From NCBI RefSeq assembly GCF_006345805.1, contig NC_043006.1, positions 91,822,001 to 91,886,000 on the forward strand: a stretch of DNA of 64,000 nt. Reading direction: 5' to 3'. The notes beneath the pieces were generated by a model. The model was not told the DNA's origin. It did not search any database and worked only from the letters and a program-made list of their open reading frames with translations. The stretch's first letter is position 1; each line of letters starts with the position of its first letter. This DNA comes from Octopus sinensis. Its lineage: Eukaryota. The position numbers were made by a program, and so were the translations under genes. Shown one piece after another: positions 8,745 to 54,034 of this stretch.

Positions 8745-9003
8745 TGACCCTCCGCAAAATCCTAAATTTTATTTAATTTGCTTTGAGGGAACAACTGTTT
8801 TATTGAAAGCGTATCTTGTTATTAAATGCTCGAAATACGAGATTAGAAAAACAGCCAACGACTGATGATGGGTCGTTCTTTGTGTTGTTTGTCTTATTTT
8901 CCGATTGTGTCTTATGTTGTTCGAAAAATACTTCATATTCCATGTACTCGTTCTTCGTATCTTTTGTTGTACACTTTTCGTGACGTCCTGTGCCCACATA
9001 TGC
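8745..9003 (+). mobile_element. Non-coding dispersed repeat in microsatellite context (Penelope-like terminal segment)
   Basis: Colinear with the reverse complement of 38675-38940: GACCCTCC...ACTGATGA(T/A)GGGTCGTTCTTT...GTGAC(G/A)TCCTGT(G/A)CCCA. Confidence 0.6.
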
Positions 9004-9162
9004 ACGTATATATACGTATAGATGTAAGTATGTACATATACGTATGTATATATGCATAAATGTATATATATTATTTATATTATTATATGATTGAACGCCA
9101 CGCATCCTCTTCGAAGTAAGTTTTATATATATATATATATATATATATATATATATATATAT

Positions 9163-9666
9163 ATTCCCCCTCAACATGATTTCGAATAAAAGCATTTTCC
9201 TATGATAGTTCTATGCCTAAAACAGGTTTCAAGGCTTTCTTGCCAAGAACCATCAGACGATTAACCTGGGCTCATTTCGATTAGAATTTCCTTTTCGGGG
9301 AAAAATTTAGACCAGTGTTTAGTCCCAAATCCCACCAATAATGGGGCTCTTAAGCCGGTAACGGATGAATACATTCTGAACATATGAAACAATAGTTCGC
9401 CATTGGATGGGTCAGAAGTGCTTGAACTTAAACATCCCATCTACGTCTCGTCGTATCTACCTTTCTTCCGTGCTAAGATTGCATATCTAATGTGTAATGC
9501 ATGCAAAGACAGTGCAAGTAAGATGACCTCTGCAGCTCCTACCATATTGACACACAAAACAATGCACTTTGGGGCATTACTTTCATTAAATAATGGAAAA
9601 TTCCATTTGCTTTTTCTGAAACAGTTGGCTGCTTTTCTTTGTTTAAGATCACCATTTTTCTCTGCA
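9163..9666 (+). mobile_element. ~500 bp insert between two (TA)n tracts with a decayed hammerhead-like motif
   Basis: (TA)n on both sides; CGGATGA ATA..TAT GAAA CAATAG TT at 9362-9397. Confidence 0.35.
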
Positions 9667-9752
9667 TATATATATATATATATATATATATATATATATA
9701 TATATATATATATATAATAAATCATATATATATATAATATATATATATATGT

Positions 9753-10016
9753 ATAATTATTAAACATGACGTCAAACATTAAGGCAAGCAAACATCTCGA
9801 GTCATATACAAAATTATTATAGGAAGAAATTCAAATCTCATTTTCATCCTATGTTTGCCTTGCCTTAATGTTTGACGTCCTGTTTAACAATTATAGGTCC
9901 TTTGCATCGGAAACGTGCAATGGCTCCGCCTTGGAGCCCCACTAATCAGTTACAACACTTACCTAGCGTGCGTGCTAAATAGTTTAGATCACCTGTGAAC
10001 TAAATCCCCATATTTT
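9753..10016 (+). mobile_element. Foldback insert in (TA)n
   Basis: Inverted repeat 9753-9794 / 9851-9893; ends CCCCATATTTTG then (TA)n. Confidence 0.6.
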
Positions 10017-10424
10017 GTATATATATATATATATTATATATATATATAATATATATATATTCCGAGTGTTTAAAATTCAAAATGTTTTTCAGTTCTCCCT
10101 GCCCTTAGAATTATTTTACATAATTTTAAAAAAAAATTAATTCGTTTTCGGGAATGAAAATGTATGTGTAATATATATATATATATATACATATATATAT
10201 ACATATTATATATATACATAAATATATATACCTATATATATATACACACATACATATATATACCTCTATATATTATATATATATATATATATATATATTA
10301 TATATATATATATATATATATATATATATATATAATATATATACCTACCTATATATATATATATATACATATATATTTCTGCATATATATATATATATAT
10401 ATATATCTATGTATCGAATTGAAT

Positions 10425-51024: not shown

Positions 51025-51299
51025 CTTTCGATGGGATGTAAATAAAATACTCACGTATGATCATGGAAAAAGCACAAGCTAAAAACATAACTACACTTGA
51101 GTACATCACTTATATCTAAAAATAAAAATTCTTTGGTCAGCCTCAGAAAACAACGTCCAGACCTTTCGCCGCTACAAATTGTAATGGTTACCAGTCCTCC
51201 TGTAGCAAGCATCGAGTTTACTACTAAGCAATATATATATATATATATATATATATATATATACACATATATAAGCATACATATATACATACATATATA

Positions 51300-51610
51300 T
51301 AGGCCTGGCTTAGCCTCGGTTACAATGACGTGTTCCAGTTAATCCGATCAACGGGACGGTCGAAAATTCCGCAAAGAAGGACCCGCGTACCCTGAACGTA
51401 GATCTCAATGAGATTCAGCATGACACACTGAATGTAACAAGGCCGGTCCTGTTGAATTACAGGTACAACTCATTCTTGCCAGCTGAGTGCACTGGAAGAA
51501 CATCAAACAAAATGTTTTGCTCCAGAACATAACGCGCCGTTGGGAATGGAACACACAACTTTACCACTGCTAGCCGAATACCCCTAGCCGATACTCATCG
51601 CGCCTTCACG
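51300..51610 (-). mobile_element. Degenerate SINE, body D with tail type 1
   Basis: Minus: CCAGTGCACTCAGCTGGCAAGAATGAGTTGTACCTGTAATTCAACAGGACCGGCCTTGT...CCGTTGATCGGATTAACTGGAAC. Confidence 0.7.
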
Positions 51611-51744
51611 ATGAGTATATGTGAGTGTATAAACTCACTCACTCACTCACACACACACCACACACACACACACACACACACACACACCACACACATATAT
51701 ATATATATATTATATATATATATATATATATAATATATATATAT

Positions 51745-52198
51745 GTCACAATGAGGACATAAGGATATTTTTATCCAAAATACGCTGGTTTAATATGTAT
51801 TTTGGAGAGATAATTTTTCGTCCATGCATATATTATATGAAATATCATAAAATACCAAGTATTATTATTATTTAGTTTGAAAACGGAAAGATCTAGTGGA
51901 TAGAAATTAATTTATTAGTTAATTAACATATTAACCTACAATTGTATCATTTCATAACCAAAATTAAAACTCCAAAACATAAATAAATATATAATCTTTC
52001 ATTCTGGAATACCTTCAATGGAAAATTATTCTGAGGATTTTCCATCCAAGGTATTGCAGAATGCAAGATTATATATTTATTTATGCTTTGGAGTTTTAAT
52101 TTTGGTTATGAAATGAAACAATTGTAGGTTAATATGTTAATTAACTAATGAATTAATTTCTATCCACTAGATCTCTCCGTTTTCAAACTTAATAATTA
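51745..52198 (-). mobile_element. Foldback Penelope-like insert in (TA)n
   Basis: ~155 bp arms 51872-52025 / 52037-52197 containing GAAA CAATTG TA GGTT; unique tail 51745-51870. Confidence 0.7.
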
Positions 52199-53789
52199 TA
52201 TATATATATACATACATGCACACACACCTCCCCACAGCGCACACCAAGTCGCCACATATATATATATATATTCGTGCATATGTTTGTGTGCGTGTGTTTG
52301 TGTCTATGTTTATGTCAGCGTGTATGTACGTTTCATAAATATGTGTGTAGGTGCGCATTTAGAAATAGGACATGATTTATTATCCAGACTCTCGCACAAG
52401 TGAAACTCTTAGTTGCGACAGAGTACACCAGCAGCATTTAAAAAAAAATTCAAACTGTGCTACGTACATTTTTTTCTGTTTGGAATTCAAACCCTTAACT
52501 CTCCGTTTCATTTCCTCTCCTTTTTCTTGATGCATACCTACATATATACGCATATCTCTATGTATGTGAATGTATATATATATATATATAATATATATAT
52601 ATATATATATATAATATATATATATATATAAATACATACTTTATATACACACACAAACACACACATATATATATATATATATATATATATATATATACAT
52701 ACGTACTACATATATACAAACACATATATATCATATATATTTGTATATATATGTATATGTGTATGCATGCATGTATATATGTATATATGCATATGTGTAT
52801 GTATATGCAACATACATTCCTGGATGCTCGCGGAAATAATGGCAATGAAATACCAGAACACAAATGACAACAACATTTCTCAGATCCTTTGAACATGTTA
52901 CATGGTTTATTTTATTCAGCTCAGCAGAATAATTTGTTTTGATCTTTTGGTGTCAATTGGTAGAGAAAGCGGAGGAATTCTGCTAGATTTGTGCCGATCA
53001 GTATTTATAATGTAGTTTCGATTCTCAAATGACATGCTCTGATGTTATTTATGTCAGTTACACTCTTAGAAAAAGCATTCCTATCACACCAAACAATGCA
53101 CGTTCTTCTGAAGTCTATTGAACTAATTCCGCGTAGATTTATTAAAAGTGTGGCGGATAAGGCGAATGGTTCTCTCAGTTTACTGCACTGCAATCGGCAA
53201 AAAATATAAATATGTGAGACATAAAATGAATGTAGAATCACAAAAATATGTTTATCTCACATTATAACCTGAAACTGCACTTAGGAATTTAACTGAGAAA
53301 TTGAGACTGTTAAGTTTAGGCAAACAATCCTATAAACTATTACTAAATGTGATAAAATGATGTATTCGACTTTCTATTGAAACGCAGGCGCCATTTTATG
53401 TCATGTTTTCGAATATAAAATCAAAACAGCGTCAAAAGTCGGGTAGCACTCATAACATTTATAAAGCAACCTTACCAAAATTCTTTGTAGAAATCTGTTT
53501 TACTTTTTTTTACTGATTCCAGTCAATGGATTGCTGTTATGTGCAGGCTCGGTGGGTTTTACCAGAGTATACAATCCCTACAAAATACTAAACGCAGACT
53601 GGGGAATGCTTTAAAGGATGGGGGACTAAATGGGAAATTGGTAAAGAAGTATATTTCTGTTTGAATATAAATGTCTTTCCCCCTACGTTAACATAATCAA
53701 ACACACAAGAGCTTCGTCTGCAGTGCTGATATATATACGGATTATACATTTTTTTATTCATTTACAAGATTCAGTCATATATATATATA

Positions 53790-54034
53790 TACACTTACAT
53801 ATACGTCACTAAGGGGAACAAGTGCACTAATCAGCATCAGTATTGCTAGAAATAAGAGTCAAAGCACCTCAAAAGCCACAAAAGTATTATCTTAATGAGC
53901 AGTTGTGGCTATTGAGTTGTTTCGGCTCTTATTTCTAGCAATACTTCTGCTGATTAGTGCACTTGTTCCCTTTAGTGACGTATATTTTTCTGTCTTTAGG
54001 TTGTAAAATTACAAATTAGCCACCCATATTATTT
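53790..54034 (+). mobile_element. Foldback insert in microsatellite context
   Basis: Arms 53791-53880 / 53903-53983; tail ends CCACCCATATTATTT. Confidence 0.65.

What the first reader, a model, noticed from the sequence alone, without database searches (positions are those of the whole stretch)
8745..54034. At least eight unrelated (TA)n-associated non-coding families share one architecture
Seen at 9753, 13606, 14317, 17370, 17906, 27981, 28393, 37444, 48862, 51745 and 53790: microsatellite flank, usually a 5' inverted arm, usually a full or partial hammerhead with palindromic stem III (CAGCTG, TCACTGTGA, ATAT, CTCTGAG, CAATTG, TTGATTCAA), then a unique tail. Tandem monomers converge on 478, 488 and ~490 nt. 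No Penelope RT or GIY-YIG coding sequence is recognisable. Known: Penelope-like insertions often carry inverted 5' pseudo-LTR segments and some target (AT)n. Inference: a large, diverse guild of ribozyme-bearing non-autonomous retroelements under a size constraint; I cannot tell whether it has been described.
Basis: partly seen in the sequence, partly recalled or inferred. Interest (0 to 1): 0.85.

Follow-up and report, generated by a model that had tools for sequence, protein, structure and literature searches.

The report
Penelope-type hammerhead elements, one flipped core
This stretch of an animal genome holds eleven insertions of ribozyme-bearing, Penelope-type mobile elements in (TA)n repeats, some being cut-off ends of protein-coding elements and others short non-coding tandem units that likely borrow their enzyme; this is a known kind of element, but one family of nearly 6,000 copies carries a flipped ribozyme core pair whose activity is untested.

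Summary
The anatomy is real: 11 of 11 sites abut a microsatellite, 10 have an inverted arm, 9 a full or partial hammerhead, and all 11 families carry one elsewhere in the genome. The reading is only partly right. Five families (9753, 13606, 17906, 27981, 28393) are truncated 3' ends of coding Hydra-type Penelope-like elements (PLEs), four (14317, 37444, 48862, 53790) are non-coding tandem units, i.e. non-LTR retrozymes, a described class, and two are unresolved. Units are not fixed near 480 nt: about 350, 430, 470-497 and 550 nt occur. (TA)n targeting, inverted 5' copies and a one-sided tail are published PLE traits. Extras I did not find in print: every inverted insertion examined (48 of 48) has one long and one short fixed 3' end, 49-170 nt apart; and the 17370 family has a G3-C8 flipped hammerhead core (5,877 pattern matches, 0 control), so all four Watson-Crick 3-8 pairs occur in this genome. 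No cleavage or expression was shown. Earlier scan notes hold related PLE parasites in other genomes, not these families. Verdict: new variant of a known kind.

The parts
9752..10017 (+). Family J: foldback-like inverted arm (9752-9820) plus 3' end; no hammerhead in this copy; 3' end of a decayed Hydra-type coding PLE lineage
   Evidence: endonuclease remnant upstream in 1 of 20 loci, L307
12819..13338 (-). Family L, left arm: short 3' end at 12819 in (TA)n, G3-C8 hammerhead with core starting at 12941
13605..14298 (+). Family B copy 1: inverted arm 13605-13867 (short end), forward 13875-14298 (long end), 3' half of hammerhead at 13908; 3' end of a coding Hydra-type PLE
14318..15399 (+). Family A copy 1: inverted arm to 14619 (long end), then 1.65 non-coding units of 477 nt ending at the short end; full hammerheads at 14744 and 15222
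15441..16135 (+). Family B copy 2 (part of a local 1.84-kb tandem duplication, 13561-15442 / 15399-17280, 98.8% identical)
16155..17229 (+). Family A copy 2 (same duplication); hammerheads at 16578 and 17053
17316..17890 (+).
17906..18634 (+). Family C: inverted arm to 18101, forward part with decayed long-loop hammerhead (core about 18154, GAAA 18257); old family, linked to a Hydra-type endonuclease remnant
   Evidence: 1 of 15 loci, L173
27981..28312 (+). Family D: hairpin arm plus 3' end with half hammerhead at 28082; shares its last 300 nt with the sequence directly after a decayed Hydra-type frame
28393..28732 (+). Family E: two copies from a local 197-nt duplication; decayed minimal hammerheads at 28470 and 28667; relative of an intact 723-aa Hydra-type PLE
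37446..38234 (-). Family F: one 488-nt non-coding unit, a partial second unit and an inverted arm (38146-38234); hammerhead core CCGAUGA at 37771 with a 73-nt loop II
48862..51230 (-). Family G: 4.8 non-coding tandem units of about 491-495 nt, 5' truncated, no inverted arm; hammerhead cores at 51019, 50524, 50033, 49048
51745..52200 (-). Family H: long-end arm on the minus strand, short-end arm on the plus strand with core at 52031 and GAAA at 52115, stem I lost; status unresolved
53799..54034 (+). Family I: hairpin arm plus 3' end, no hammerhead in this copy; family has a 347-348-nt unit and a hammerhead with a 10-nt palindromic stem III

Best explanation
The eleven sites are insertions of Penelope-type retroelements into (TA)n tracts, likely made by the reverse transcriptase-endonuclease of coding Penelope-like elements (PLEs): five are 5'-truncated ends of coding Hydra-type lineages, four are non-coding tandem units (non-LTR retrozymes) that likely borrow that enzyme, and two are unresolved. 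Shown: fixed 3' ends in microsatellites, variable 5' truncation, head-to-head inversions, tandem non-coding units with one type I hammerhead each, dispersal over many contigs at 95-100% identity for the young families, and intact coding PLEs with the same anatomy in the same genome. Inferred: a tandem or circular RNA is the template; the endonuclease cuts both strands of (TA)n; reverse transcription starts inside the RNA at one of two fixed sites 49-170 nt apart downstream of the hammerhead; an inverted insertion uses each site once, either by priming from both cut strands or by fold-back of the first cDNA; the hammerheads, with palindromic stem III, cleave as dimers and would release unit-length RNA.
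For: Family A: 170 matches on many contigs, mostly 95-100% identical, unit 473-479 nt; G 491-496 nt and F 479-488 nt; longest ATG frame on the circle 39, 91 and 73 aa, circular fold z -9.3, -5.1, -5.1. Coding links: B runs without a break into a GIY-YIG frame 2.5 kb upstream, and a 960-aa ORF lies between two direct copies 80% identical to its end, period 5,602 nt; E-type end follows an intact 723-aa ORF; D, J, C follow decayed frames. Both long ORFs carry the Hydra motifs RWK/RWR, DKT, CxCX5C, CxxC and CxH (motifs from PMC8557442 section 11). 45 of 45 distinct inverted insertions and 3 of 3 have one long and one short end. Pattern counts far above reversed controls. Stem changes keep pairing between subfamilies. 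Internal two-site initiation and cutting of both strands were shown in vitro for a lizard PLE (PMC11167929).
Against: No coding partner was found for A, F, G or I among 129 held loci with PLE protein matches, so trans-mobilisation is inferred from anatomy alone. The links of J and C rest on one locus each (1 of 20, 1 of 15); the window copy of E matches the coding element over only 44 nt; one D copy has about 850 nt of non-coding upstream sequence without a protein match. For B, C, D, F, I, J the loci were picked for holding the long end, so only the absence of a second long end is informative there; family A (10 of 10) was not so selected. In the lizard system hammerhead cleavage was not needed for insertion, and 8 of 9 frog retrozyme dimers did not cleave in vitro (bioRxiv 10.64898/2026.07.22.740005), so the ribozyme step may be dispensable. 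Several families carry non-canonical cores.
Confidence: 0.8

Rival explanations
1. All families are only terminal fragments (pseudo-LTRs) of coding PLEs, and the tandem arrays grew afterwards by local DNA amplification, as satellites do.
For: Five of 11 families are linked to coding elements; local duplications that include the microsatellite occur in the window and elsewhere (L429); the 2026 preprint discusses this route.
Against: A, F and G arrays lie at many unlinked loci with the same two 3' ends, different 5' break points and inversions inside the array, and their units hold no flank or microsatellite; no upstream coding sequence in any fetched copy.
Confidence: 0.12
2. One reading: all sites are unrelated non-autonomous elements held near 480-490 nt by a size constraint.
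For: Three superfamilies with no blastn similarity keep 469-487, 479-489 and 487-497 nt across subfamilies.
Against: Units of 347-356, 430, 543-554 nt in the same genome; five families are coding-linked; published range 51-972 nt in vertebrates.
Confidence: 0.05
3. The inverted arms are terminal inverted repeats of DNA elements (MITE or foldback type), and the hammerhead-like words are passengers.
For: Several window copies are near-perfect hairpins with 7-32-nt loops.
Against: The arms are head-to-head copies of one 3' end with unequal fixed termini and variable inner break points; many copies have no arm; coding relatives encode RT and GIY-YIG, not a transposase.
Confidence: 0.03

Closest known systems
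Animal non-LTR retrozymes (Cervera and de la Pena 2020, PMC7229834; Li, Clavereau and Pollet 2026, bioRxiv 10.64898/2026.07.22.740005)
   Same: Dispersed, low-GC, non-coding tandem units, one type I hammerhead each, structured when folded as circles, co-occurring with PLEs (families A, F, G, I).
   Different: Units of 476-495 nt exceed the 170-400 nt of the 2020 paper but lie inside the 51-972 nt of the 2026 preprint; here the units show PLE insertion marks directly (two fixed ends, inversions, (TA)n); expression and cleavage not shown; my searches found no cephalopod retrozyme paper.
Hydra-clade Penelope-like elements (Craig et al. 2021, PMC8557442)
   Same: RWK/RWR, DKT, CxCX5C linker, CxxC and CxH in a C-terminal GIY-YIG, hammerhead near the 3' end, (TA)n targets, inverted 5' copies, one-sided tail.
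   Different: One lineage has a 5.6-kb unit with a 2.5-kb 3' UTR and an asparagine-rich insert (described clade: under 3 kb); tails are 49-170 nt rather than 30-40; no tree was built.
PAc Poseidon element of Anolis (Frangieh et al. 2024, PMC11167929)
   Same: Two internal start sites define a tail; AT-rich targets; both strands cut and extended.
   Different: In vitro no difference of start site between strands was seen, whereas here inverted insertions always pair one long with one short end.
Minimal PLE hammerheads (Cervera and de la Pena 2014, PMC4209133) and natural core variants (Perreault et al. 2011, PMC3088659)
   Same: Palindromic stem III, extra base before stem II, high family diversity, natural U3-A8 pair, U4C known from a viroid.
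   Different: G3-C8 and A3-U8 pairs as family consensus in thousands of copies, U4C as majority core of three families, and 70-100-nt loop II extensions; in the passages I read G3-C8 appears only as an engineered rescue mutant.

Membership tests
non-LTR retrozyme (A, F, G, I) | Head-to-tail non-coding units with a type I hammerhead in each | tested here: met
   A, G, F; I only as partial tandems at 2 of 20 loci
non-LTR retrozyme (A, F, G, I) | No protein-coding frame | tested here: met
   Longest ATG frame 39, 73, 91 aa for A, F, G; no PLE protein match inside units; I unit not scanned for frames
non-LTR retrozyme (A, F, G, I) | Dispersed multi-copy, GC under 45% | tested here: met
   GC 33-35% for A, F, G
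non-LTR retrozyme (A, F, G, I) | Self-cleavage and expression as linear and circular RNA | not testable with these tools
   needs bench assay or raw RNA reads
non-LTR retrozyme (B, C, D, E, J) | Short non-coding tandem unit | tested here: not met
   continuous with coding or decayed coding frames; D may include a non-coding subfamily
Hydra-clade PLE (partners of B and E) | RWK and DKT motifs, RT core, CxCX5C linker, C-terminal GIY-YIG with CxxC and CxH | tested here: met
   motif scan of the 723-aa and 960-aa ORFs; Pfam itself gave no match; 52 homologues, most with PF26215
Hydra-clade PLE (partners of B and E) | Hammerhead near the 3' end and insertion in (TA)n | tested here: met
Hydra-clade PLE (partners of B and E) | Placement in the Hydra clade on an RT tree | not tested
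   no reference set of named PLE proteins was held
PLE insertion anatomy (all families) | 5' truncation, partial tandems, inverted 5' copy, tail at one end only | tested here: met
   G showed no two-ended inversion in the loci held
canonical type I hammerhead (family L) | C3-G8 core pair | tested here: not met
   G3 with C8 in 95 of 100 listed matches, C3 with G8 in 0 of 100
canonical type I hammerhead (family L) | Stems I, II, palindromic III, GAAA and UH around the core | tested here: met
   stem I 6-7 bp, stem II 4-5 bp, AATATT stem III, cleavage triplet AUU

The most novel reading that the evidence does not exclude
This genome runs a natural covariation experiment on the hammerhead active site: recently mobile PLE-type families use all four Watson-Crick pairs at positions 3-8 (C-G; U-A; G-C in at least 5,877 copies; A-U in about 1,000), which descriptor searches fixed on CUGANGA miss. 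Together with the strict pairing of one long and one short end, 49-170 nt apart, in every inverted insertion, this would show that a PLE dimer primes the two cut strands at two different RNA sites and that the ribozyme fold stays under selection even with cores that are slow in vitro.
Probability: 0.4. Interest if true: 0.62.

Novelty: new variant of a known kind. Interest (0 to 1): 0.42.

Why it matters
What remains useful: a single genome with young retrozymes, intact Hydra-type and Neptune-type PLE proteins and sharply mapped start sites offers a direct test of which PLE mobilises which retrozyme and how inverted insertions form, both open questions in the papers read. Natural G3-C8 and A3-U8 hammerheads in thousands of copies, if active and undescribed, widen the ribozyme consensus and imply that genome surveys undercount hammerheads and that some PLEs scored as ribozyme-free may not be.

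Tried and rejected
Rfam scan of the window: only sub-threshold microRNA-hairpin matches among the 150 listed of 227. Pfam on the two Hydra-type ORFs and on the first GIY-YIG fragment: no match. Search for coding partners of A, F, G, I, H in 129 held loci with PLE protein matches: only nested insertions; a 94-nt, 71% match of G in L063 lies outside that element's 3' UTR and was not pursued. Expression: no RNA holder listed for the A unit; four contig runs laid on it cover it but cannot show transcription, ends or circles. Apparent periods of 523, 948 and 1020 nt were checked and dropped (opposite strands, or duplications holding microsatellite); 393 nt (L300) was dropped because J is coding-linked; 304, 456 and 535 nt rest on one locus each and were left out of the size list. 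The pattern had a gap range that excluded the F loop and is not a count; one search replaces it. The element at 8745 was tested as a type II hammerhead: both core boxes are conserved in reversed order but no convincing helices were seen. The second CUGAUGA in the G unit lies inside a hairpin and has no matching GAAA. Lunse et al. 2017 on PLE hammerhead variants is not held, so novelty of the core variants is not settled; supplements of the papers read were not opened and may list such variants or cephalopod families. Repbase and Dfam were not available.
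Full report
Setting. The window is G000:C10:91822001-91886000 of a 2.72-Gb, 13,516-contig animal genome, 65% AT and rich in microsatellites. The host is probably a cephalopod: an inference from the repeat content and from two Argonauta-labelled homologues among 52, not a test. I name the families by letter: J 9753, B 13606, A 14317, L 17370, C 17906, D 27981, E 28393, F 37444, G 48862, H 51745, I 53790.

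Observation. All 11 sites abut (TA)n or (CA)n, 10 have a head-to-head inverted arm (not G), and 9 carry a full or partial hammerhead in the window copy (not J, I). A descriptor found 4 strict full hammerheads against 0 in 30 block shuffles, 9 loose ones against a mean of 1, and 61 half motifs against 11.5 +/- 3.3. The B+A block and E are each doubled by local duplications, so the window holds fewer events than copies. It is richer than average: 15 short-range inverted pairs in 64 kb, 12 with (TA)n at an end, against 30 and 9 in 400 kb of arbitrarily chosen stretches; those 400 kb held 12 intact hammerheads, six in one array, against 0 in three shuffles. No PLE protein matched the window.

Every family is a genome-wide repeat. 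DNA searches (39-40 candidates scored each, so lower bounds) gave 170 matches for A, 48 B, 225 G, 82 F, 45 C, 50 D, 98 H, 42 E, 47 I, 49 J. A, G and F are young (top hits 95-100%), C, H, E and J old (70-85%). Whole-genome pattern counts, which include relatives, with reversed controls in brackets: A type 3,483 (4), short-loop CAGCTG type 5,173 (45), G type 916 (0), F type 279 (0), I type 20 (0), E type 7,808 (0), H type 256 (0), L type 5,877 (0). Rfam RF00163 gave 8 matches over its cut-off among 74 scored, from other families.

Five families are ends of coding elements. B extends upstream in longer copies and reaches a GIY-YIG frame 2.5 kb away; L242 matches B at 92% downstream of a 501-aa frame, and L236 and L237 hold a 960-aa ORF between two direct copies 80% identical to the last 262 nt of B, period 5,602 nt. 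An E-type hammerhead and tail end an element with an intact 723-aa ORF (L434); all 20 E loci match that end, mostly at 69-78%, the window copy only over 44 nt. All 15 D loci match, at 75-86%, the 300 nt that directly follow a decayed frame in L427, but another D copy has about 850 nt of non-coding upstream sequence. J and C each follow a decayed endonuclease frame in one locus (1 of 20, 1 of 15). The two long ORFs carry RWK or RWR, DKT, YRDD, CxCX5C, CxxC and CxH, the features given for the Hydra clade (PMC8557442, section 11 read). B, C, D and J share a hammerhead design with stem III CAGCTG, so they are not unrelated in origin although they no longer align. The genome also holds intact 775-781-aa RT plus GIY-YIG elements with a CxxC linker, Neptune-like by my recollection of that motif, ending in (TA)n.

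Four families are non-coding tandem units. A, G and F form dispersed arrays with modal periods 476, 495 and 487 nt; I shows 347-348-nt partial tandems at 2 of 20 loci. Longest frames are 39, 91 and 73 aa, GC 33-35%, and circular folds are more stable than shuffles (z -9.3, -5.1, -5.1). A sister of A, 76% identical, keeps a 475-nt unit and changes stem I in compensating fashion. No coding partner was found among 129 loci with PLE protein matches. H and L are unresolved.

Size. But other hammerhead arrays have periods of mostly 347-356 nt, 430 nt and 543-554 nt (544-545), and I has 348. There may be preferred sizes; there is no single constraint.

Two fixed 3' ends. Ends that abut a microsatellite fall at two places in A, B, C, D, F, H, I and J, 49-170 nt apart and 74-379 nt downstream of the cleavage site where measured; G showed one. 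Counting distinct loci by hand (A 10, B 10, J 8, F 6, D 4, I 4, C 2, H 1), 45 of 45 inverted insertions pair a long with a short end; a few short ends lie off the modal site. L adds 3 of 3. Only A was sampled without regard to ends; 10 of 10 would arise about once in 1,000 if ends were independent and equally likely. Contigs of two other runs run into (TA)n at both A ends. The short sites are TA-rich, so microhomology may help; the long sites mostly are not. Small-loop hairpins (7-32 nt) fit fold-back self-priming; A insertions with several units in both arms fit two separate primings better.

Hammerhead variants. CCGANGA (U4C) is the majority core in B (8 of 12), D (8 of 12) and F (15 of 17). 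B, C, F and H have loop II extensions of about 70-100 nt. Family L has a complete type I frame with core GUGAACA: G3 with C8 in 95 of the 100 listed matches and C3 with G8 in none, in a pattern that left both positions free. The 781-aa elements have U3-A8, and a pattern fixed on A3-U8 gave 1,044 matches against 40 (stem I seen in one held locus, L049). All four Watson-Crick pairs therefore occur. The folding program did not return the hammerhead fold as the minimum for the isolated A or L motif, and no activity was measured.

Mechanism. Shown steps are the anatomy above. Inferred: transcription of a tandem or circular RNA, binding by a PLE protein, cutting of (TA)n on both strands, internal initiation at either site, frequent early termination, and joining of two cDNA ends or fold-back to give the inversion. 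Arrays with more units than one need a multimeric or circular template. PMC11167929 (parts 1-2 of 4 read) shows internal initiation at two sites that define the tail, cleavage and extension of both strands, a predicted dimer, and that hammerhead cleavage was not needed for insertion in vitro.

What is known. PMC8557442 (passages and section 11): partial tandems, inverted 5' copy, 30-40-bp tail at one end, (TA)n bias, non-autonomous Chlamys elements. PMC7229834 (abstract, passages, discussion): non-LTR retrozymes of 170-400 nt, PLEs the candidate partners. bioRxiv 10.64898/2026.07.22.740005 (parts 1-3 of 5): retrozymes as non-autonomous PLE derivatives, 51-972 nt, 1 of 9 dimers cleaved. PMC4209133 (parts 1-2 of 4): minimal palindromic PLE hammerheads, natural U3-A8. 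PMC3846280 (passages): palindromic inverted junctions, asparagine-rich inserts. PMC3088659 (section 8, passages): natural U3-A8, U4C in a viroid. PMC8495972, PMC3884650 (passages): G3-C8 as an engineered variant. PMC13282606 (passages): octopus repeat annotation, 31 active PLE families, no use of the word ribozyme. PMC6765202 (passages): review. Searches for octopus or cephalopod with hammerhead or retrozyme and for natural G3-C8 found no description of these families or of a natural G3-C8 core, but the library lacks most subscription papers and Lunse et al. 2017 was not held.

Verdict. A correct and well-spotted anatomy, made of two known things: truncated Hydra-type PLEs and non-LTR retrozymes. 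The size-constraint idea is weakened. Long tails with strict long-short pairing and high-copy flipped cores make it a variant worth a bench test. Interest 0.42.

Noticed in passing
window 8745-9123; also 38680-38990 (minus): Abundant old repeat (matches in 30 held loci) ending in (TA)n, with GAAA and CUGANGA boxes conserved in reversed order about 25 nt apart and no convincing helices.
   Followed up: partly
G000:C1 arrays, e.g. C1:105634458-105636603; L392: A young 347-356-nt tandem hammerhead family with stem III CTCGAG, 2,079 pattern matches with relatives against 31.
   Followed up: partly
L381:7135-9920: Six-unit 550-nt hammerhead array with stem III CGTACG found in the arbitrary sample.
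   Followed up: partly
L063, L064, L067, L068: Near-identical 781-aa RT plus GIY-YIG elements with an upstream overlapping 479-aa frame and a U3-A8 hammerhead core; candidates for an active PLE.
   Followed up: partly
L049:2072; A3-U8 core hammerhead in the 3' UTR of a GIY-YIG element; about 1,000 pattern matches, some in 544-nt tandems.
   Followed up: partly
window 14993-15043 in run X14: One contig shows a cluster of A-to-G differences, most absent from the large run X15; could be A-to-I editing or a species difference; the run type is a guess.
   Followed up: no
window 20320-22623: Four 560-590-nt tandem copies with (ATT)n tracts of a LINE-like 3' end; RTE-like by recollection of the adjacent frames.
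   Followed up: no
window 58854-59786 (minus): 310-aa open frame with reverse-transcriptase motifs of CR1/L2 type (label recalled, not searched).
   Followed up: no
window 39396-39598, 54391-54656, 60659-61084: Further long palindromes without a (TA)n flank; 39396 has a 5-nt loop.
   Followed up: no
long 3' ends of A, B, D, F, G, H, I, J: Most long ends have a pyrimidine run followed by A, such as CCTTA or CCCAT, 5-12 nt before the microsatellite; not tested against chance.
   Followed up: no
L236:1249-4131: The 960-aa Hydra-type ORF has a long asparagine-rich insert between RT and endonuclease, as described for rotifer Penelope elements (PMC3846280).
   Followed up: partly
window 12060: Isolated half hammerhead (GAAA CAGCTG UA) with one relative among held loci.
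   Followed up: no
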